A DNA stretch of 31,011 nucleotides from the NCBI GenBank assembly GCA_007135895.1, contig SLHZ01000287.1:1-31011 (forward strand). The letters are read 5' to 3'. Made by a program: the position numbers and the translations under genes. The notes below the pieces were generated by a model. That model ran no database searches, was not told the origin of the DNA, and was given only the letters and a program-made list of their open reading frames with translations. The stretch's first letter is position 1, and the number at the start of each line of letters is the position of its first letter. The DNA comes from Balneolales bacterium (GTDB lineage: Bacteria > Bacteroidota > Rhodothermia > Balneolales > Natronogracilivirgulaceae). This document shows, one piece after another, positions 1 to 10,500 of the stretch.

Positions 1-3000
1 AAGAATTCATCGGGTCCGTCAAGATAACCGAACACGCGCGTTCGCATCTGAATACGCTGTGAAGCGAGCATAAAACCGTAGCGCAGTTCCGCCTCCATGG
101 AGTGGTTGTGAAACTGATCGTAAATAGGAATGAGTGTCCCGTCCCGTATGTCATAAGAGTCGAGCAGTTCGCTTGGTTCATACCGGTAGCGTATGATGCC
201 TCTCCAACCTAAGGGGGCGATATCACGATGCGGTTCCGGATACGTGAGATTGAAGATCCAGGCCGTTGTCCAGGTAGAACCCGAATAATAGCGTGAAGTC
301 GATCCCGGGATCTCCTGCCGGTACTCCCTTGAATAGAATGATTCGGTGGATACCCGGTAAGGGCTGTAGTGATAGCCGAGTTCAAGCAGGCTCCAGCGAT
401 TCAGCTTGCTGATAAGGCTGACCTCCAGCTGCCACATGTTGTAGGCGATATCGGTGGCGGTGGTATCCGGCAGACAGGCTGTACAGGGGAACTCCTCAAT
501 CTGGAGGCCATCCTGTACGTTTCTCCTGATATTGAAAAATGCCAGTGAGACGGTGGGAGACCAGTGCCGCTTGATGAACGGGAGTCCGGCATATTCCACT
601 TCAAGGAACAGGTCGCGGTCCAGACTGACCAGCCTCCCGGGCGCAAAGAAATTGCTTACACCGTCACTGGAGCGTGATCCGGGGCCAAAGAGAGCACCAC
701 CGAAAATACTGAACCGTTCGCGCATCTCCCGTGATGCAAAGTAGGCGCCGGTTTTGAAGTCACGCCACATATTCGCGCCGAAGTCACCATATTCTCCGGA
801 TCTGAGCAGGGTGGTGTTGCTTCCACGCATACGGGAATAGGTATCAAGCCGGAAGACGGGATAAAACTGGAAAGAGGTAAACTGGTCTTCGTAGCGGTAG
901 AGCTGCCGTTCAGACGATGAGCCTCTTGTCGGAAGCTGAAAAGTATAGGGTGTGTGTGCGCTGTTTTCCTTGACAGCGGATTTCAGCGGTTTGATATCCG
1001 TGTCGTCATAGTCATTGAGATTCCATGAGGAGTCATGTGCAGGATATCTCTGTGAATATCCCGCATCAGAAGCATGAAATGACGAGGTGACCACATCAAA
1101 TATCATTTCAGTGAGATCCAATAAAGCGATTTTGTATCCGTCGGAGCGGTATTCTGAATAGAGGAGCAGCTCGTTTTCCGGATGGGGAGAGGGCATGAAG
1201 GCGCCTCCGGCGACGTTGGTGATCCGGTAAATCTGTTTGTCGGTAAAATCAAGGCGGTACACATTAAAAGCTCCGGAGATATCGGCACTGAAATAGAGGT
1301 AGCGCCCGTCGGGGCTCAGGACAGGATCTCTGAAATCGACGGATTCATCTGCAAGGACGGGTTCTGCCGGATAGGTCCTGCCGGGCTGATCCTCTCCGTA
1401 AGCTCGAAACAGGCCGGATGCGGGAAGCTCTATCTCTATTCGTCCGATATTCCGGTTTCCCGTGCTGGAGTAGGCGAAATAGATAGATTGGCCGGATGGA
1501 TGCCATACCGGCCGGTAAACCTGTTCTCCATTCCGGAAATCAGTCAGCCGGATCAGAGAGTCTTTTTCGACATGATAGAGGAAGAGGTTGGTGGACCCGT
1601 CCTCGATTTTCCCGGCAACAATCGTTTTCCCGTCGGGACTCCATGCGGGATCCTGGAGCCGTTGGTTGCGGGTCAGCCGCCGGCTTTTTCCGGTTTCCAT
1701 ATCGTAGAGGTGGAGGTCCCTGTACTGTTCACCATAGCGGTTGAGGGATGCTCTGCTGTAGGCAATGCTGCTGCCGTCCGGGGAGAAGCTGAAAGAGGTC
1801 TCAAGGCGCCGGAGCAGGGTCTGGTTTAAATGACACGAAAACATGTGTTGGCCGCCGGTGCGGTGTTGCTGATTACCTCCTGATGCATGGAATCGGCGGG
1901 CGGACATATTGTTGTCCGGGTGGCTGGCCTGTTCGTAGATAAGGTTTTCAAAAGCCGTCGATTCAATGGCATGGCCAGTATCTTCGATATCTCTGAGGAT
2001 AAGTTTGGCCACGGCGCTGTAAGTTTCCTTGTTGGAAAGGTAGGCCAGCTGCTTGCCATCGGGATGGAAAACCGGGTGCATATTGAAAAAACCTTTGGTT
2101 TCGACCCACGTCCGGTTGTCCGGCTGGCTGTCCCGGCCTTCCATAAAAATATCATAACGGGCTTTCCGGTCTGCGATCCAGTCATCAAAGAGCTCCGTTC
2201 CGGGAATACCGGTGGCCTGTTCAATGGCCTTGTCGACGTCATGGGTTCCCCGTTGGCTGAATATGCGCGTAATATCGGCCAGTGCCTGTTCTCCGAGACG
2301 TTCTGCTATGTAGCGGGTAAAATCAAAGCCCTGGTTATAGACAAGCTCTCTTTCAAGGGCTGTTTTGGAATAGAAGGTCCCCATCTTTTCCAGTCCCAGA
2401 TAAGTGCCGTCCAGGATGCGGGTGCGTAAAAGCATGTCACGGTGGCTGTCCCAGTCATCATAAAAGATATTGGCACGCATGAACTGGGCGGTGCCTTCGG
2501 CAAGCCAGGCCGGCATGGTGATGCCGGATAGTGGATAGGAAATGATGGTATTCGGGAAGCCGTAGAGTACATCGGGTCGCCGGACCTCTTCGTAGGAGAG
2601 CCATTGCAGATAGGTCGCCGGATGGCGGCGGCTGTTCTTCATGGCGGCCTGAAGCTGGATAATGTGGGTGAACTCATGGGTAATCACATTGCGCAGCCAG
2701 TCATGTGTTCCCCTGAGCGGTGTATCGAGGGAAGGCAGCCAGATTTCAATTTTGTTATCATAAAAGAAAGCTGCGCCATTGGAGTAATCCAGCCGGTCGA
2801 TAAGGAGAATGCTGATTTTATGATCGGGCTCATGATTGTACAACTCCGTGATGGGAATGTAGATTTCCTCGGCTATCCGTGATATCACCTGAGCCGGCCG
2901 GCTGTTGCCCTCCTGAAAATGGACCAGGAAGTGGTCGCTTTCAATAGTATACCATTCCAGATGATGATAGGGGTAATTATAGAATACCGGGTTGCGCTGA

Positions 3001-3068
3001 GCCTGCAGATCTGCTGTAGTGATCAATAGGACCAGGATTGTGAGACCGGTGGCAACGACGCATCGCAT
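1..3068 (-). CDS. Secreted multidomain outer-membrane protein, 3'-truncated by the window edge (>1022 aa): signal peptide, gluzincin/peptidase MA-like domain, PD40/WD40-like beta-propeller, probable Omp85/BamA-type beta-barrel
   Basis: Manual translation shows a frame open from ATG 3068 (alternative in-frame ATG 3146) to the window edge with no stop. It is absent from the ORF track. N-terminus is MRCVVATGLTILVLLITTADLQAQ. Zinc motif THEFTH (HEFTH 2664-2678) is followed by PAWLAEGTAQF (E at 2496-2498). Propeller repeats are FHPDGKQLAYLSN, FSFSPDGSSIAYS, PAWSPDGKTIV, PVWHPSGQSIYFA and PVLSPDGRYLYFSAD. The C-terminal part has alternating aromatic beta-strands and HRDIAPLGWRGIIRY. The barrel identity is inferred because its end lies outside the window. 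Confidence 0.88.
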   Translation of the reverse strand, partial: MRCVVATGLTILVLLITTADLQAQRNPVFYNYPYHHLEWYTIESDHFLVHFQEGNSRPAQVISRIAEEIYIPITELYNHEPDHKISILLIDRLDYSNGAAFFYDNKIEIWLPSLDTPLRGTHDWLRNVITHEFTHIIQLQAAMKNSRRHPATYLQWLSYEEVRRPDVLYGFPNTIISYPLSGITMPAWLAEGTAQFMRANIFYDDWDSHRDMLLRTRILDGTYLGLEKMGTFYSKTALERELVYNQGFDFTRYIAERLGEQALADITRIFSQRGTHDVDKAIEQATGIPGTELFDDWIADRKARYDIFMEGRDSQPDNRTWVETKGFFNMHPVFHPDGKQLAYLSNKETYSAVAKLILRDIEDTGHAIESTAFENLIYEQASHPDNNMSARRFHASGGNQQHRTGGQHMFSCHLNQTLLRRLETSFSFSPDGSSIAYSRASLNRYGEQYRDLHLYDMETGKSRRLTRNQRLQDPAWSPDGKTIVAGKIEDGSTNLFLYHVEKDSLIRLTDFRNGEQVYRPVWHPSGQSIYFAYSSTGNRNIGRIEIELPASGLFRAYGEDQPGRTYPAEPVLADESVDFRDPVLSPDGRYLYFSADISGAFNVYRLDFTDKQIYRITNVAGGAFMPSPHPENELLLYSEYRSDGYKIALLDLTEMIFDVVTSSFHASDAGYSQRYPAHDSSWNLNDYDDTDIKPLKSAVKENSAHTPYTFQLPTRGSSSERQLYRYEDQFTSFQFYPVFRLDTYSRMRGSNTTLLRSGEYGDFGANMWRDFKTGAYFASREMRERFSIFGGALFGPGSRSSDGVSNFFAPGRLVSLDRDLFLEVEYAGLPFIKRHWSPTVSLAFFNIRRNVQDGLQIEEFPCTACLPDTTATDIAYNMWQLEVSLISKLNRWSLLELGYHYSPYRVSTESFYSREYRQEIPGSTSRYYSGSTWTTAWIFNLTYPEPHRDIAPLGWRGIIRYRYEPSELLDSYDIRDGTLIPIYDQFHNHSMEAELRYGFMLASQRIQMRTRVFGYLDGPDEF

Positions 3069-3159
3069 GGAAGCCGCGGCATGCAGGTAACGCAGCCAGC
3101 ATTTGCCGGGAAGAGATAAGCGCGCATGTGGTCGGGAACAGGTCATTCCGGTTTTGGTA

Positions 3160-6100
3160 TCAGCGGTTAACAACGATTTTGATCAGGGAGGATTCGCTTT
3201 TGGAACCGTTGCCGGCTCTGACGCGGGCGAAGTAGATGCCATTGCCCCAGGAGGAGGTATTCAGCCGGACTTCCTGCGGATACTGCCCGGGTGTTTCGGT
3301 TGTATGTTCGAAGACGGTTCGTCCGGCCGGATGCATGACAGTGATGTCGATGCGGGCCGGTTCAGAGGTCATGAATCGAATATGGGTGTGATCGGTTGCC
3401 GGGTTGGGCCAGTTGTATGTTTCCTGCTTGTTAAGGAGTCCGAAGTCTTCAGGCGGCCTTGCTGTCTGCCGGGCGTTCTTTCCCGCCTTATTGCCGGGCT
3501 GGGGTCCGTAGACACGGCCCCAGGCGATGGTGCCCCGCTCGGGCAGGTTCCATGCCTTGACTTCACCTCCGGGGGCCACTGAAATCAGATATTCGCCGGC
3601 GATAAGCAGCGGTGGTGGCTGATGGCCGTCCGGGTCGGCACTTCCGGCCAGCAGGGGGAAGTCCTCAATGAGTTCTGCGAAGCGGTTGTAAGCCCGGATG
3701 CTGATGTTCAATGTGTCCGATGCCGCAATGATTAACTCAAGATGCCCGTCACCGGTAAGGTCGGCCAGAAGCGGAGAGCCAATGTAACGGTTTTCGTATC
3801 TGGCCTGCAGCGGGAAGTGGTCAAGCAGAGCGCCATAGCGGTTCAAACCAAGGAGCCTCTTGCCATCATCATCGGTGAAAAAAAGATCAAGGCTGTTGTC
3901 ACCGGTCCAGTCACCCAATGCAGGCCAGGAGAGGTTGTTTCCCTCGTAGACGACATCAAGCTGCCATTCCCGGGAGCTGTTTTTTTTGATGAGGCAGAGG
4001 CGGTGGTCGGTTAGCAGGAAAAAAGCGGGGTCGTCATCACCGCTGAAGCGGATATTGCCGGTGTATTTTCGCAGGGACACCCGGTCCTGCTGGTCGAGAT
4101 CATAAAAGAATGATCCATCGGAAATCTCAAAACGGTCGTTGAGCAGGAAGGAAAACAGTCCGTTTGTTTCGGCGCTTTGCTGGTATGCACCGCTGAAATC
4201 GTCCAGGAGAGATCCTTCTTCTGTGAAGCGAGCAGGCGTCAGATCGGCATGGATCTCATTGACACCCGTACTGCTGACCAGGCCGGGTCCGGATGGTATA
4301 TTCCGCAGTGGCTGGGGCCATGCGGGGAGCCACTGGTCGTTTTCATAGATCCATGACCGGATCTCCTGAGGGGTGGTTCCATGGCCTGTTTGTCCTGAGA
4401 TGATCCGATTTTCCCTGATGAGCGGAGAGGAGGGCCATGGATGTTCCAGGAAAGTATGGGGCTCGTCGTTTGCGGGAAATGGAGCGATAAAGAAACCATC
4501 GGGTGAGGGCAGAAGCAACTGGTTGCCGTCAGGATTGGAAATCAGCTCCGGGCTGACGGGGAAGGCGGTTGTTTCAGGGGGAAAGACCGGTCTGGTTAGC
4601 CATGCCGGCTGTGGGGAGTCAACGGGCCGTGTCCAGATGCCGGGAAGAGAGCGGGCGTAAAACCAGGCAATGTCGAGGTTGTCTGAAAAATCAAAAAACT
4701 CGAAAAAGGACGGACTTCCGGTGTTGCTGTGATTGGAGGGACGCGTATCGGGTCCGAACCGGTTTTCATAGGCAACAATGCTGTCCCCTGTGGCGGTGAT
4801 GACGGTAAAGTCATTGCCAGACCACCAGAAGTCGAAAGCGTGTCCGTTCACGAAGCGATCTTGTCCGGGCAGCGGCGGCCGGCCAATGTCTCTGGAACCA
4901 TCGGCTTCGACCAGCTGGACTCCCCGGCGGTCACGGTCGGCATTTACCCGGTTTTGACTGATCGTTCTTCGTATTACAGCCTCGTCGATATGCCATATCA
5001 GGATGCCGCCATTGAGGATCCGGTCGTCATGATCTCCCCGTGCGTCTTCCTCGTCGAAATCGGGGCCACCGGGCAGACTCCAGTCGAAGTTGCTGACATT
5101 GGTGATAACGCCGGGTTCAAGGATCTCATCGTATCGTGAGATATCGAAGGGATCGAATCGCGCATCATCCGGTTCAATAAAGCGGGTGACAGTACGTCCG
5201 TCGGGTGTACGAATGGTCAGTTCGAGAGGTTCGAGGTCCGGATTTCGATGTCGGTTCTCAATGAGGAAGTATTCATCGTCGGATATGCGGTGCCGTGCTA
5301 TGCTTAAATCCTGTTGCATGGAGGCGGCCGGCAGCATAATGGGCTGGCTGGTATCGAGGGTGATGTCGAAGGGTTCGGCCCATCCGAGATGGATTTTTTC
5401 CCAGGCGGAGGGCTCCGGAGGAAACAGACCACGGTAGGAGAAGATGGAGGCTCCGTCCATGAGTCCGAACCGGCCGATAGCCGAAGCGCCGGTCCGGGTG
5501 TCAAACAGGTCGGGCAGGCCGAGGAAGCTGCCGATATTAGCGACGAGGATGCCATTGATGGAGAGCTGGAGTACGTATTCGGTTCCGGTGATGTCTTCAC
5601 CGGCGCGGGACTGGGTTTGCGGGATTAGTGCTGTATTGGTCACACGCAACACCGGATCACCAATATCGAATCCGTCAAATGCAGGATCATCCAGCAGACG
5701 TCCGAGGGCGTTGGTTCCCAGATAGACCGAGGGAATATCCTGGGGTGTTTTATAGAGGCTGGTGCCCATGAGTTCGATATTGCGACCGGCTCCGGCGTGG
5801 AAGATGATAAACATCGTGCGATCCGGGTCGGGGCTCTGGCCGGGAGGCGGACTAACGGGGCCAACGCGGTTCCAGACATCGCGTGCCAGATGTGCGAGTT
5901 TGAAATTTTCTTCACTGGTTTCACCAATCGGGGCATAGTCCCTCATCGGGTGGTCCAGTCGTACCATATCCGGGTGGATATGGTAGGAGATATTCAGCCG
6001 GTTGCCGGAGACGCTTTCAAAGTAGTTTTTGGCAAATTCGAGATGAGCCTCGAAGTGGGTGCGGTTATGGGGCAGGGGGTCGATGACGATGTCGTCACGT

Positions 6101-6351
6101 TGCAGGTAATCCAGATCAAATGTGCCGTCCCCCGATGTAAAGCGGTTTTGTTCGGGCTGGAATTCTGCCATGACGGCGATGATATGCAGGGTATCGCCGG
6201 TATCCATGCCTGCGGGGGCCTCTGCAGAGAGAGCCAGGCTGGTGCTTCTGAAGGTCAACTCTGCCGGAGGAGATGCCCCGGCAGTGTAACTGAAAAACAG
6301 GAGAAGGGGGAAATAACAGATAAATCTGCTTCTCCGGAAGCATGGAAGCAT
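3160..6351 (-). CDS. T9SS cargo protein (1063 aa): M6/immune inhibitor A-like domain with degenerate zinc site, FG-GAP-like repeats, type A C-terminal sorting domain
   Basis: Signal peptide. M6-like motifs IIFHAGAG, LGLPDLFD, GRFGLMD and PSAWEKIHLGW, then EYFLIENR and GILIWHIDE. Ca-blade repeats LGDWTGDNSLDLFF and LADLTGDGHLELII. CTD with YNWPNP...GIYFARV...KIVV. Confidence 0.85.
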   Translation of the reverse strand: MLPCFRRSRFICYFPLLLFFSYTAGASPPAELTFRSTSLALSAEAPAGMDTGDTLHIIAVMAEFQPEQNRFTSGDGTFDLDYLQRDDIVIDPLPHNRTHFEAHLEFAKNYFESVSGNRLNISYHIHPDMVRLDHPMRDYAPIGETSEENFKLAHLARDVWNRVGPVSPPPGQSPDPDRTMFIIFHAGAGRNIELMGTSLYKTPQDIPSVYLGTNALGRLLDDPAFDGFDIGDPVLRVTNTALIPQTQSRAGEDITGTEYVLQLSINGILVANIGSFLGLPDLFDTRTGASAIGRFGLMDGASIFSYRGLFPPEPSAWEKIHLGWAEPFDITLDTSQPIMLPAASMQQDLSIARHRISDDEYFLIENRHRNPDLEPLELTIRTPDGRTVTRFIEPDDARFDPFDISRYDEILEPGVITNVSNFDWSLPGGPDFDEEDARGDHDDRILNGGILIWHIDEAVIRRTISQNRVNADRDRRGVQLVEADGSRDIGRPPLPGQDRFVNGHAFDFWWSGNDFTVITATGDSIVAYENRFGPDTRPSNHSNTGSPSFFEFFDFSDNLDIAWFYARSLPGIWTRPVDSPQPAWLTRPVFPPETTAFPVSPELISNPDGNQLLLPSPDGFFIAPFPANDEPHTFLEHPWPSSPLIRENRIISGQTGHGTTPQEIRSWIYENDQWLPAWPQPLRNIPSGPGLVSSTGVNEIHADLTPARFTEEGSLLDDFSGAYQQSAETNGLFSFLLNDRFEISDGSFFYDLDQQDRVSLRKYTGNIRFSGDDDPAFFLLTDHRLCLIKKNSSREWQLDVVYEGNNLSWPALGDWTGDNSLDLFFTDDDGKRLLGLNRYGALLDHFPLQARYENRYIGSPLLADLTGDGHLELIIAASDTLNISIRAYNRFAELIEDFPLLAGSADPDGHQPPPLLIAGEYLISVAPGGEVKAWNLPERGTIAWGRVYGPQPGNKAGKNARQTARPPEDFGLLNKQETYNWPNPATDHTHIRFMTSEPARIDITVMHPAGRTVFEHTTETPGQYPQEVRLNTSSWGNGIYFARVRAGNGSKSESSLIKIVVNR

Positions 6352-6385: not shown

Positions 6386-7507
6386 CTAGAAGTTCAGCAG
6401 GGCGGTAAAGCGCAACGTATTGGCAAGCGGGTGATCTTCTTCGATGGTATAAATATAACTGAAGTCGATTCCGAATATGTTATAGCGCAGTCCGGCGCCA
6501 AAAGTGAGGAACTCGCGGGCTCCGTTATTGGGAGACTCGTAGAAATAACCGGCTCTGAGAGCGAAAAGTTTGTCATACCAGTACTCCAAACCAAGACCGA
6601 CCATGATTTGTTCGCTCAGTGGCACATCGACGATCTTTTGACCGTCGTGTCGTGTATAGGTGTCCCATGACCGGAACAGCGCTTCAATGGTGCCCATGGA
6701 CCGGCCTTCTTCATCGTTGCGAGCCATGATCTTGGAGAAGTCGTTGCTCAGGGTGATCGTGTTGAAACCGTTCCGGTCAAGATCCATTTTGTAAGCCCAG
6801 CCAATACGAAGCAGGGTGGGCAGGGGATCTTTTTGCGCCTCATCGGTATACTGAATAGCGGGACCTATATTGGAGAGGTTCAGACCGGCCCGGACTTGTG
6901 CTTCTCGATTGGCGATCATGAAAGGGGTGGAGCGGTAGAGTGTGGCGATATCAAGGCCAACGCTGGTCCCGTTCCGGGCGGTTTGTCCGCTGACATCGGT
7001 TCCGGCAGGTACAAGGTTACTGAAAATGAATCGCAGACCGGTGCCAACGGCAAGGTTTTCATTGACTTTGAAGCCGTAAGAGAATCCGGAGGCCACTTCA
7101 TAGCTGGAGAATTTCCCCAGCTCATTGCCACGCTCGTCTGTCCGCATCTGTTCTCCGAGATTCAGGAAGGTGATATGAGCTCCGATGGTACCGATGCCGT
7201 CGATGTGATATCTTCCCGCCAGGTAATCGTAAAACATATCCACATTGAAGTTGGGCAGCCAGTCGGCATGGGTCAGACTGACTTCGTGCCCTTCCAGGAA
7301 AGCCAGGCCAGCCGGGTTCCAGAAAATAGCTGTAGCGTTATCGGCAATTGCTACTCCTGAGTTGCCCATGCCGGCGGTTCGTGAATCGGGCTCAATCTGA
7401 AGGAAGGGGACGGCAGTGATACCAACCTGAGCTAAAGCAGTGCCAGTGAGGACCGTAAGCCAGGCTCCTGCAGTTAAAAAACAGATAAGGGAGATCTTTT
7501 TCAGCAT
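6386..7507 (-). CDS. porV: Type IX secretion system outer-membrane shuttle PorV (373 aa from ATG 7507)
   Basis: Signal peptide MLKKISLICFLTAGAWLTVLTGTALAQ, then the PorV signature ITAVPFLQIEPDSRTAGMGNSG...WNPAGLAF, SLTHADWL, LRAGYFYES, LTFGAGLRY and NTLRFTALLNF. Lies directly downstream of porU. The ORF-track start at 7690 overlaps porU and is rejected. Confidence 0.93.
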   Translation of the reverse strand: MLKKISLICFLTAGAWLTVLTGTALAQVGITAVPFLQIEPDSRTAGMGNSGVAIADNATAIFWNPAGLAFLEGHEVSLTHADWLPNFNVDMFYDYLAGRYHIDGIGTIGAHITFLNLGEQMRTDERGNELGKFSSYEVASGFSYGFKVNENLAVGTGLRFIFSNLVPAGTDVSGQTARNGTSVGLDIATLYRSTPFMIANREAQVRAGLNLSNIGPAIQYTDEAQKDPLPTLLRIGWAYKMDLDRNGFNTITLSNDFSKIMARNDEEGRSMGTIEALFRSWDTYTRHDGQKIVDVPLSEQIMVGLGLEYWYDKLFALRAGYFYESPNNGAREFLTFGAGLRYNIFGIDFSYIYTIEEDHPLANTLRFTALLNF

Positions 7508-7553: not shown

Positions 7554-10500
7554 TCATCTAAAAATGACAAGTCTTTCGATTTTATCTTGAGTTTGTCGAC
7601 CCTGGCCGGTATCGGCTCTGACCTGCAGGTGGTAGAGATAGGTGCCTGATGCCAGACGATGGTTGTCGTCATCACGGCCATGCCAGTCAATGCGCACCAT
7701 ATTGCCGGATGTTATGAGCTGTTCCCTGCGGATGGTGGTCACCGGTTTTCCGCTGAGGGTAAAGATACGGATATTTACATCCATTGGAACCCCCGGCTGA
7801 TTGTGTTCAAAGATAAAATGGGTGAACTGATGCATGGGGTTGGGATAATTATAGACATTGCGGATTTGAAGTTCGCTGCTGTCGAGAACCTGGAAATGAA
7901 TTTCCGCTTCACCGAGGTTATTGAACACATCCCATGCCCTGACCCTGAGTCTGTACGACCCTTCCCTGAGGTTATTGAGCGGGTATTCAATGCGGCCGCT
8001 GGTAAAATCATCCAGGTCACTCAGGTAGTAGTCGTTCAAAACAATGGTATTTCGGCTGGTTTCGTCATTTCTGTCTTCGATGATGGCTACGATTTCATGG
8101 CCTACGCCGGCTCCGGTGGTATTGATGCCGGTGTTGTCGTTGAGCAGGACAATGAGTTGTGGAGCGTCATTGACGATACCCCCGTCGGTGAAAAGCTCGT
8201 CATTGAGATAGATGGTGATATCCGGACCTTTGCCGTCGTCCATGGCATCGGGATTCCGGCTGCGGATACGGAAGCCCGAGTTGGCGCCGGTGGCACTTCC
8301 GGTTTGTTCCCGGGCAAAGACATGCGCACGACCGCTCCGTGTAGAGTAGGAGACATCTTTCGGGATAATGAATTCGCTGCGGAAGGTGCCGGAAGAGACA
8401 GATACGCGTCCGTTGAACAGGGCATCGGTCTGGACGTGATAGCCGCAGTTGTCCAGATAGCAGTCGTTATCGGCGACCCAGGGCAGGTCAGGATATCGAA
8501 CCAGTCTCTTCGCGTCGAAAACACGGATGCTGGCTTCCCCGTTGAAACCGGTGTCGACTGTGCCGTCCGGTCGCAGAATATGGCCGCTGAGGGAGACCCT
8601 GTCGAGGGCCCGGAGTTCAAAAAGGGTGTCGGGCTGCACGGGCAGATCATTTATCTCCGTGATTTCTGCACGGGCTTCGGGCAGGCCGATTCGCATGGCA
8701 GGATCACCAAGAAGGATGAACTTCCGGCTGTTAAAAACAGTGCCGACAGGAGTATTCTTTGTTTCCCTGAAGATGTCGCCCAGTCTTTTGGGCAAGCCGT
8801 CGTCATCACGGCGGGTCATGGCACGGGTCAGGGCGATATTGAGCCCCATGTTGAGAACAGCGGGAGAAGGTGCAGTGAAAACAACCCGGGTGGTAGTGAA
8901 CGCGGCGACGATACCGCCGTCTGGATGTAACAGTAGTTTTTCGGCTCCGGATTGGTCTTCCGTATCATCAAAACGTCCGAACGAGCATGTGGCCGTGACC
9001 ATGATACCAAGCCGGTCGCGATTGTGTAAACGGCCGATATCATCCGAGCTGAATAGCCGCTGGTCCGTGAGGAACTGTTCTGCTCCGTGACCCGAGAAAT
9101 TAAATACCAGTGTGCCGTCATTAATGCGGTCAATCATGGCCTGGGTAGCCTGCGGGACCCGCCGGCCGGCACTGGTGTTTTCAAAGGGGAAGGAAATCTG
9201 GTAGATTTTTTCCAGCCGGATTCCGGTAGCGTCCTGGTCAATTACTTCCGCCGTGCCATCAGCGTTGAAAATGTGAAGGTCGCCGTCATTGGAACGGCCG
9301 GCAACATCGTCATCGGCAATAAAGGTAAAAAGATTTTGCCACTCGCCGCGGTTTCTGTGGTCTTCGTAGGTTTTGATTTTGTCGACCAAAAGGCGGGCTT
9401 CGTCTCGTGTCTGAACCGGAAGGCGGCCCACACCCAGGTCCATCAGATTAATTGGGTTGCCGGGAGTGCTGGCCTGGGGCCAGAGTCCTTCATTATCGCC
9501 CATGAAGGTGAAAAAGTCATCACTGCCATAGCTGTTGGTGCGGTGGATGGACTCTTCGCTCTGGTAGGTGAAGACGAAATTGCGCATGACCGGATTGGCG
9601 ACGATATTTTTGTAGTCGTACGTAGTATCACCAAATAGCAGCAGATACCGGGGCAGAGGTCTTCCGGCAGCACCGGCCCGCAGATAGAGAAAGCGGACAT
9701 AATCCCGTAACGCTGTAAAATCGGGTACACCGCCGTTGAATTCATTGAATATCTGGTTTTGCGTTACAATAACCGGAATGAGACCGTCGCGTTCGAAACG
9801 GTAGCCGGCCAGTCGTTCGGCTTCTTCTGTAAAGGGTTCGGCTGTGATAATGATATAGTCGGGATATACGGAGGGGTTGCGGATATTCTGGTTGGCCATC
9901 TCTTCACCGGCGGGTGGCCGCCGGAAGGTGTCTCTGGCCAGGATACGCTTGCCGGGCAGTGAGGAGTGGATGACGGTGTGCTGCCCTCCCTGAGCCTGCA
10001 CTTCCAGTTTCACGGGCTGGATGGGATCGGTAATATCCAGAACGAAGGGTTCCCGGCTGAAACCGGTCATTAGATAGCGTACCAATTCGCCATTGCCATT
10101 ATCAGGTGAAAGGAAAAGCAGGCGGCCGTTGTGAGCCGAGAGCCGGCGCTCGGCGCGTATCCGGATCCAGTTTACCCAGCCGCGTGATGCGCTGGAGGGA
10201 TTCTCAAACGTAGCGGCAATGGTGATGATGTCGTTCTGAAGTGAAAAACCGGTCAGGGTTTGCCGCAATTCGGCAATTCGGGCAGAAAGATGTGTGGCGG
10301 CCGTCAGGCTTGGGATACTGTTGATGGGAAGGGTTGGCAATGCCGTGCTTCCGTTGACCGTGAAGGAGAATCGGGATGTTTCCAGAGATCGTGCGCCCAT
10401 GGAAAACCAGACTTCAATATCCGAGCCCTGAACGAAACCATGAAGGGTGTCGGTCATGATAACTTGTGAGTGTGAATGAACGGGGTCAAAACCCTGTCCA

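What the first reader, a model, noticed from the sequence alone, without database searches (positions are those of the whole stretch)
5458..5541. M6-like pseudo-protease: zinc motif HExxHxxGxxD rewritten as ANIGSFLGLPD
Seen in sequence: GILVANIGSFLGLPDLFD aligns residue-for-residue with the M6/InhA motif (typically G-x-x-A-HEFGH-x-LGLPDxY). Both His ligands and the catalytic Glu are replaced (H to A, E to N, H to S; ANIGS at 5527-5541). The Asp, the Met-turn (GLMD, Met 5458-5460) and the flanking motifs are kept, and the 1063-aa ORF is intact with a T9SS CTD. Inference: a secreted non-catalytic protease fold acting as a peptide-binding adaptor, inhibitor or scaffold next to the sortase.
Basis: partly seen in the sequence, partly recalled or inferred. 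Interest (0 to 1): 0.7.

Follow-up and report, generated by a model that had tools for sequence, protein, structure and literature searches.

The report
Dead M6-like protease beside porU-porV
This gene encodes a secreted protein with the fold of an M6 (immune inhibitor A type) zinc protease that has lost both zinc-binding histidines and the catalytic glutamate; NCBI already curates this family as "inactivated", so the finding is correct but not new, and the protein's job beside the type IX secretion genes is still untested.

Summary
ORF 3160-6351 (-), 1063 aa, reads A271-N-I-G-S275 where M6 proteases have H-E-x-x-H. The third ligand Asp281 (GLPD) and the Met-turn Met298 (nt 5458-5460) are kept.

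It is already described. The protein matches NCBIfam NF052323, "T9SS-dependent M6-like inactivated metalloprotease", end to end at 1137 bits (cut-off 600). This scan has also reported the same family in at least eight other genomes.

What I confirmed or added:
- **Fold:** the AlphaFold model of aa 45-575 (pLDDT 89) matches Bacillus anthracis InhA2 (Z 20.6; next best 9.1). It is followed by a beta-propeller and a T9SS C-terminal domain.
- **Motif loss is family-wide:** 0 of 77 readable species copies (Balneolales, Rhodothermales, Ignavibacteriales) keep either His or the Glu.
- **Constraint:** the former active site is the most conserved stretch, and dN/dS is 0.12.
- **Gene cluster:** the order porU-porV-M6i-(HExxH peptidase + PD40 + probable Omp85 barrel) is fixed. 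porV lies upstream in 72/72 loci and the peptidase gene downstream in 67/67.
- **Limits on its role:** it is not a PorZ substitute, and some T9SS-bearing relatives lack it.

Best reading: a non-catalytic binding protein exported by the T9SS, probably working with the neighbouring machinery. That last step is inferred, not shown.

The parts
3160..6351 (-). M6i gene: 1063-aa T9SS-dependent M6-like inactivated metalloprotease
   Evidence: Intact ORF. NF052323 scores 1137.5 bits against a cut-off of 600, covering model positions 7-1042 of 1043.
6274..6351 (-). Probable Sec signal peptide (aa 1-26: basic RRSR, hydrophobic core, AGA|S)
   Evidence: Read directly from the translation. No predictor was run.
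4627..6219 (-). M6 (thuringilysin/InhA)-like catalytic-type domain plus the domain packed against it, aa 45-575
   Evidence: AF2 pLDDT 89.4, pTM 0.92. InhA2 4yu5/4yu6: Foldseek E 1e-15; Z 20.6, rmsd 3.7 A over 380 residues, next best Z 9.1. AFDB hits are InhA and PrtV.
5509..5541 (-). Degenerate zinc motif A271-N-I-G-S275-F-L-G-L-P-D281, replacing HExxHxxGxxD
5458..5460 (-). Met298, the Met-turn methionine (GLMD), kept
   Evidence: Aligned to the Met of DLMS in an active M6 paralogue. Nearly invariant in the family.
3532..4626 (-). Beta-propeller, aa 576-940 (a weak FG-GAP_3 hit at aa 814-874)
   Evidence: AF2 pLDDT 93.1. BamB/WD40-type propellers match at Z 20-22. FG-GAP_3 scores 22.2 bits, below the cut-off.
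3163..3411 (-). T9SS type A C-terminal sorting domain, aa 981-1063
   Evidence: PF18962 34.2 bits (cut-off 27). TIGR04183 29.1 bits (cut-off 23).
6386..7507 (-). porV (outer-membrane shuttle), directly upstream. The ORF is open back to 7690, but a near-identical locus has a 373-aa gene call.
   Evidence: NF033710 282.8 bits (cut-off 250). Gene call in L127. Upstream of M6i in 72/72 loci with room.
7554..11516 (-). porU (T9SS sortase, C25 family)
   Evidence: NF033707 1033 bits (cut-off 420). PF01364 301 bits. Upstream in 56/64 loci with room.
3..3173 (-). Downstream partner gene, cut by the window edge. It has an intact HEFTH MA-type peptidase and a PD40 propeller. Full-length homologues (about 1200 aa) end in a probable Omp85-type barrel.
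   Evidence: Atlas feature hits to Omp85-bearing clusters score 0.97. Downstream of M6i in 67/67 loci with room.

Best explanation
The gene encodes a catalytically dead homologue of M6 (thuringilysin / immune inhibitor A) metzincins, a member of NCBIfam NF052323. Shown: the M6 fold is kept. Both zinc-binding His and the general-base Glu of HExxH are replaced (A, N, S). Only the Asp ligand and the Met-turn remain. The loss is ancient and family-wide, and the gene is under purifying selection. It carries a signal peptide and a type A CTD, so it should be exported across the outer membrane by the T9SS. Inferred: the former substrate cleft is the most conserved part of the protein, so it most likely still binds a peptide or protein ligand without cutting it. 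The gene is locked into a porU-porV-M6i-(HExxH peptidase/PD40/Omp85-like) cluster across Balneolales, Rhodothermales and Ignavibacteriales. It therefore most likely works as a non-catalytic binding or scaffold subunit together with that cell-surface sorting machinery or with the neighbouring live protease, and not as a free-standing enzyme. Odds: about 0.9 for 'non-catalytic pseudo-protease', about 0.4 for 'works physically with the neighbouring T9SS/Omp85-peptidase proteins'.
For: Family membership: NF052323 scores 1137.5 bits against 600, full length. Fold: InhA2 Z 20.6 against a next best of 9.1, Foldseek E 1e-15, InhA/PrtV in AFDB. Motif: A271/H, N272/E, S275/H, D281/D and M298/M against active paralogues. 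The roles of these residues in metzincins are as stated in PMC12237041. Family-wide loss: 27/27 phylum-wide sequences and 0/77 named species copies keep H..H or E. Constraint: the two most conserved 30-aa windows are aa 290-319 and 259-288. dN/dS is 0.118 for the whole gene and 0.094 for the M6 domain, with no non-synonymous change in aa 255-325, measured against a 98% identical copy. Export: CTD hits, PorU/PorV adjacent, PorZ elsewhere in the genome. Linkage: porV upstream 72/72, peptidase gene downstream 67/67, porU upstream 56/64. The same gene order holds in 18 of 20 distant unnamed loci. The gene is single copy, with 165/401 sampled genomes of the phylum over the cut-off. Five same-class genomes without M6i also lack a comparably scoring orthologue of the downstream peptidase: best 78 bits against 416-751 bits in the M6i-bearing loci.
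Against: No experiment exists, and I found no paper on the family. I could not inspect model coordinates, so an unconventional metal site built from other invariant residues (H95, H185, D205, D299, H454, D456) is not formally excluded. Conserved gene order does not prove physical association. M6i was not found in five complete same-class genomes that still carry PorV, four of them also PorZ. It was also not found in 136 sampled genomes of three large families of the phylum, two of which have PorZ. So it cannot be an obligatory T9SS core part.
Confidence: 0.75

Rival explanations
1. An ordinary T9SS cargo: a surface-displayed or released binding protein (adhesin or ligand trap) whose function has nothing to do with the secretion machinery. 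On this reading the position next to porU-porV only reflects co-expression with the export route.
For: NCBIfam names it 'T9SS-dependent', that is, a substrate. Its CTD is an ordinary type A CTD, like about 52 others in this genome. T9SS-bearing genomes without M6i exist.
Against: Ordinary cargo genes are scattered and variable. This one is single copy and keeps the same two neighbours in 72/72 and 67/67 species over phylum-level divergence of 28-45% identity.
Confidence: 0.3
2. Still an active hydrolase that uses a non-canonical metal-ligand or catalytic set elsewhere in the cleft.
For: Several His, Asp and Glu residues are invariant in the family (H95, H185, D205, D299, E365, H454, D456). The cleft region is the best conserved part.
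Against: Both helix histidines and the general base are gone in every copy. They are replaced by small or polar residues that vary (A/G/S; N/Q/S/T/M; S/N), with no conserved ligand on the helix. NCBI curators also call the family inactivated. A metzincin site reduced to a single Asp is not known to hold catalytic zinc (general knowledge; motif roles in PMC12237041).
Confidence: 0.05
3. A decaying gene, that is, a private degeneration on its way to becoming a pseudogene.
For: None beyond the lost motif.
Against: The 1063-aa frame is intact. dN/dS is 0.12. The same substitutions in kind occur across three orders. There are 541 relatives in species genomes.
Confidence: 0.01

Closest known systems
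NCBIfam NF052323.1, T9SSA_dep_M6i, 'T9SS-dependent M6-like inactivated metalloprotease' (equivalog)
   Same: Full-length match at 1137.5 bits (cut-off 600). Same architecture: M6-like domain without HExxH, then a propeller, then a type A CTD. UniRef already uses this name for homologues.
   Different: Nothing; this is a member. The model name gives no function beyond 'inactivated' and 'T9SS-dependent'.
Immune inhibitor A / thuringilysin (MEROPS M6), e.g. Bacillus anthracis InhA2 (PDB 4YU5/4YU6) and Vibrio cholerae PrtV
   Same: Same fold over about 380 residues (Z 20.6). It keeps the GLPD Asp ligand, the Met-turn and the ...EYFLxENR block.
   Different: Both His and the Glu of HExxH are lost. 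The M6 HMM scores below its cut-off (52.6 against 110.8 bits) and there is no Pfam Peptidase_M6 hit. There is no N-terminal prodomain: the fold match starts at InhA2 residue 159 but at aa 50 here. The C-terminal half is a propeller plus T9SS CTD instead.
Inactive metzincin homologues such as ADAM22 (pseudopeptidases reviewed in PMC11266112)
   Same: A metzincin fold kept as a non-catalytic binding module. ADAM22 chains appear among the weaker structural matches (Z 7.5-7.8).
   Different: No specific relationship, and a different metzincin family. The review holds no occurrence of 'family M6'. The analogy is functional only.
PorZ (T9SS attachment-complex propeller-plus-CTD protein, PDB 5M11)
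   Same: The C-terminal half (propeller + CTD) has PorZ as its top Foldseek hit (E 5e-9, TM 0.35). Both proteins are encoded in T9SS contexts.
   Different: No PorZ HMM hit on this protein. A true PorZ gene is present elsewhere in this genome and in most M6i-bearing genomes. So M6i is not a PorZ substitute, and the propeller match is generic.

Membership tests
NCBIfam NF052323 (T9SSA_dep_M6i) | Whole-protein score above the curated cut-off, covering the full model | tested here: met
   1137.5 bits against 600; model positions 7-1042 of 1043.
NCBIfam NF052323 (T9SSA_dep_M6i) | M6-like domain with the catalytic HExxH inactivated | tested here: met
   A271, N272 and S275 replace H, E and H. The fold matches InhA2.
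NCBIfam NF052323 (T9SSA_dep_M6i) | T9SS type A C-terminal sorting domain, in a genome that has a T9SS | tested here: met
   PF18962 34.2/27 and TIGR04183 29.1/23. PorU and PorV are adjacent, and PorZ is in the genome.
MEROPS M6 active metallopeptidase (thuringilysin / InhA) | Zinc motif HExxHxxGxxD: two His ligands, a catalytic Glu and an Asp ligand | tested here: not met
   Only G278 and D281 survive.
MEROPS M6 active metallopeptidase (thuringilysin / InhA) | Met-turn below the metal site | tested here: met
   M298 aligns to the Met of an active paralogue and is at least 90% conserved.
MEROPS M6 active metallopeptidase (thuringilysin / InhA) | Family HMM above its cut-off | tested here: not met
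   TIGR03296 scores 52.6 bits against 110.8 and covers only aa 276-369. There is no Pfam Peptidase_M6 hit.
MEROPS M6 active metallopeptidase (thuringilysin / InhA) | M6 three-dimensional fold | tested here: met
   4yu5_B: Z 20.6, rmsd 3.7 A, 380 residues.
MEROPS M6 active metallopeptidase (thuringilysin / InhA) | Bound zinc and proteolytic activity | not testable with these tools
   Needs purified protein.
T9SS attachment-complex component (PorZ-like) | PorZ family HMM match | tested here: not met
   No NF052228 hit on the protein. A separate PorZ gene exists in this genome at E 4e-112.
T9SS attachment-complex component (PorZ-like) | Physical association with PorU, PorV or PorQ | not testable with these tools
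   Only conserved gene order is available.

The most novel reading that the evidence does not exclude
M6i and the downstream HExxH-peptidase/PD40/Omp85-like protein form a second, so far unstudied module of the T9SS surface-sorting apparatus in the non-Bacteroidia lineages of Bacteroidota (Balneolales, Rhodothermales, Ignavibacteriales). In this module the dead M6 cleft would hold cargo, or a partner's peptide segment, for PorU or for the neighbouring live protease. The module would be ancestral and lost in Bacteroidia, where all T9SS experiments have been done.
Probability: 0.25. Interest if true: 0.65.

Novelty: already known. Interest (0 to 1): 0.25.

Why it matters
As a catalogue entry it adds nothing, because NCBI already names the family as inactivated. 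The open point is function. This single-copy dead protease is strongly constrained and keeps the same neighbours (porV and an Omp85-linked live protease) across three orders. That is unusual for a mere cargo. It suggests that T9SS outside the well-studied Bacteroidia has accessory parts nobody has examined. A knockout or pull-down in a cultivable carrier would settle this cheaply.

Tried and rejected
- **PorZ-replacement idea: rejected.** PorZ (NF052228) is present in this genome and in most M6i-bearing genomes.
- **Sequence searches of the PDB found no M6 structure.** Neither the single protein nor the family profile reached one. Only the fold comparison did.
- **Co-folding gave no verdict.** A run of the M6-like domain (alignment A2) with mature PorV (alignment A4) scored 0.00 against a mark of 0.32. 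No other pair could be tried because the cap is one job.
- **Literature searches found nothing on this family.** I searched for T9SS plus 'inactivated metalloprotease', M6, pseudoprotease, and T9SS in Rhodothermus, Balneola and Ignavibacteria. The InhA2 structure paper (PMC4706643) is not held.
- **No check for an alternative metal site.** The tools do not expose model coordinates, so I could not measure distances around the former zinc site.
- **Two early genome-search runs failed** on the accession format, and one paper search and one paper look-up failed on a short term.

Full report
**Observation.** The window holds an intact 1063-aa ORF on the minus strand, 3160-6351. Its translation contains ...INGILVANIGSFLGLPDLFD...GRFGLMDG. 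Active M6-type paralogues from genomes of the same family read TTMHELGHNFGLPDLY (L040) and AHEMFHVLGASDLY...DLMS (L037). A profile alignment pairs A271 with the first His, N272 with the Glu, S275 with the second His, D281 with the Asp ligand and M298 with the Met-turn Met. In metzincins the two helix histidines bind the catalytic zinc and the Glu is the general base. The third ligand is His or, in snapalysins and thuringilysins (M6), Asp, and the Met-turn underlies the site (PMC12237041).

**What it is.** Pfam sees only the T9SS C-terminal sorting domain (PF18962, 34.2 bits, aa 981-1053) and a sub-threshold FG-GAP repeat. NCBIfam gives the answer at once. NF052323.1, 'T9SS-dependent M6-like inactivated metalloprotease' (equivalog), matches end to end at 1137.5 bits against a cut-off of 600. 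The generic M6 domain model TIGR03296 hits only aa 276-369 at 52.6 bits, below its cut-off of 110.8. Homologues in UniRef already carry the NF052323 name.

**Structure.**
- An AlphaFold2 model of aa 45-575, built on a 63-sequence alignment, has pLDDT 89.4 and pTM 0.92.
- Its best solved match is the Bacillus anthracis immune inhibitor A2 zymogen, 4YU5/4YU6. Foldseek gives E 1e-15. VIA-align gives Z 20.6, rmsd 3.7 A over 380 residues and 17% identity. The next best entries, other metzincin-like peptidases, score Z 9.1 or less.
- In AlphaFold DB the top hits are InhA and Vibrio PrtV, both M6.
- The match begins at InhA2 residue 159 but at aa 50 of this protein. After the signal peptide there is therefore no room for a prodomain.
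- The second half, aa 576-1063, has pLDDT 93.1. It is a beta-propeller (Z 20-22 to BamB/WD40-type propellers) followed by the CTD sandwich. PorZ (5M11) is the top Foldseek hit for this propeller-plus-CTD arrangement, but at TM 0.35.

**Is the loss private or family-wide?**
- In 120 Balneolales homologues the motif is always A/G-x-x-G/A-S.
- In a 27-sequence alignment spanning the phylum (28-49% identity to the query), none has His at either ligand position or Glu at the base position. The flanks (...SINGL..., LGLPDLF, GIGRFGLMDG, FPPEPSAWEK) are nearly invariant.
- In 80 named species genomes fetched by pattern scan (Balneolaceae, Cyclonatronaceae, Gracilimonas, Rhodohalobacter, Fodinibius, Roseithermus and other Rhodothermales, Ignavibacterium, Melioribacter), 0 of 77 readable motifs keep H..H or E.
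- The family model is over its cut-off in 165 of 401 sampled genomes of the phylum, as a single copy. It was not found in three large families (0/87, 0/28, 0/21).

**Is it under selection?**
- The two most conserved 30-residue windows of the whole protein are aa 290-319 and 259-288, which is the former active site and Met-turn region. Mean column conservation is 0.53 for the M6-like domain, 0.30 for the propeller and 0.55 for the CTD.
- Against a 98% identical copy from another sample (L127), Nei-Gojobori dN/dS is 0.118 for the gene (51 synonymous and 20 non-synonymous differences) and 0.094 for the M6-like domain. There is no amino-acid change in aa 255-325.
- This is a maintained protein, not a decaying gene.

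**Context.**
- The gene is the third of four co-oriented genes. These are porU (7554-11516; NF033707, 1033 bits), porV (6386-7507/7690; NF033710, 283 bits), M6i, and a gene cut by the window edge (3-3173).
- That fourth gene has an intact HEFTH MA-type peptidase motif and PD40 repeats. Its full-length homologues are about 1200 aa and have the same Pfam domains. Their last 500 residues resemble Omp85-family barrels by language-model features (0.97).
- The order is conserved in 18 of 20 distant unnamed loci and in all 12 same-order loci, as far as those loci reach.
- In the named set, porV is directly upstream in 72/72 loci with room, the peptidase gene is directly downstream in 67/67, and porU is upstream in 56/64.

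**Tests of a machinery role.**
- PorZ is present in this genome (E 4e-112) and in most M6i-bearing genomes, so M6i is not a PorZ substitute.
- Five complete genomes of the same class lack M6i yet have a bona fide PorV, and four of them have PorZ.
- Those five also lack a comparably scoring orthologue of the downstream peptidase, with a best hit of 78 bits against 416-751 bits in the M6i-bearing loci. This ties M6i more specifically to that neighbour than to the T9SS core.
- M6i is therefore an accessory, not an obligatory T9SS part. One co-folding attempt with PorV gave no verdict and is recorded only under Tried and rejected.

**Mechanism.**
- Shown: M6 fold, loss of two of three metal ligands and of the general base, export signals, purifying selection, fixed gene neighbourhood.
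- Inferred: the cleft still binds a peptide or protein ligand, and the protein acts as a non-catalytic binding or scaffold subunit with the neighbouring sorting proteins or the live protease.
- The main rival is an ordinary surface-displayed binding cargo.

**Novelty.** I found no paper on this family, and a 2024 review of pseudopeptidases holds no occurrence of 'family M6'. The family and its 'inactivated' status are nevertheless already curated by NCBI. After reaching my conclusions I found that this scan had reported the same family beside porU/porV in at least eight other genomes, with the same verdict. The finding is correct and well supported, but already known. Only the untested functional link to the T9SS cluster keeps some interest.

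Noticed in passing
window 3-3173 (-); full-length homologue L057:12182-15796: The gene after M6i has an intact HEFTH MA-type peptidase motif plus PD40 repeats, and it is cut by the window edge. The 1204-aa homologue's last 500 residues resemble Omp85-family barrels (atlas feature score 0.97; PF01103 on 34% of one cluster). No curated family reaches its cut-off. It is always adjacent to M6i (67/67), and no comparably scoring orthologue was found in five genomes that lack M6i.
   Followed up: partly
G000, whole genome: The 67%-complete genome (2.3 Mb, 358 contigs) holds at least 52 further matches to the CTD part of the model, most in reading frames several hundred to over 1000 aa long. This points to a large T9SS secretome.
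   Followed up: no
L040 (G404:C12) and L037 (G414:C151): Genomes of the same family also carry M6-type proteins with an intact HExxH (HELGHNFGLPDLY; HEMFHVLGASDLY). Live and dead M6 forms therefore coexist in the lineage. Only L037 passes the TIGR03296 cut-off (154.5 bits).
   Followed up: partly
G003 and G036 (same class, no M6i): These genomes have 11-13 PorV-family matches each, with one true PorV plus many sub-threshold PorV/PorQ-like barrels. The genome handle G256 has a single match.
   Followed up: no
window 11708-12892 (-): The thiolase gene upstream of porU scores well above family cut-offs (TIGR01930 326.5 bits against 240.55). I did not check its catalytic residues.
   Followed up: no
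L061, L062, L070, L073, L080, L084, L085, L089: In eight Balneolales loci (Rhodohalobacter, one Gracilimonas and several Balneolaceae MAGs), porV-M6i-peptidase is intact but no porU is found within the 9 kb upstream. porU seems to have moved elsewhere in that group.
   Followed up: no
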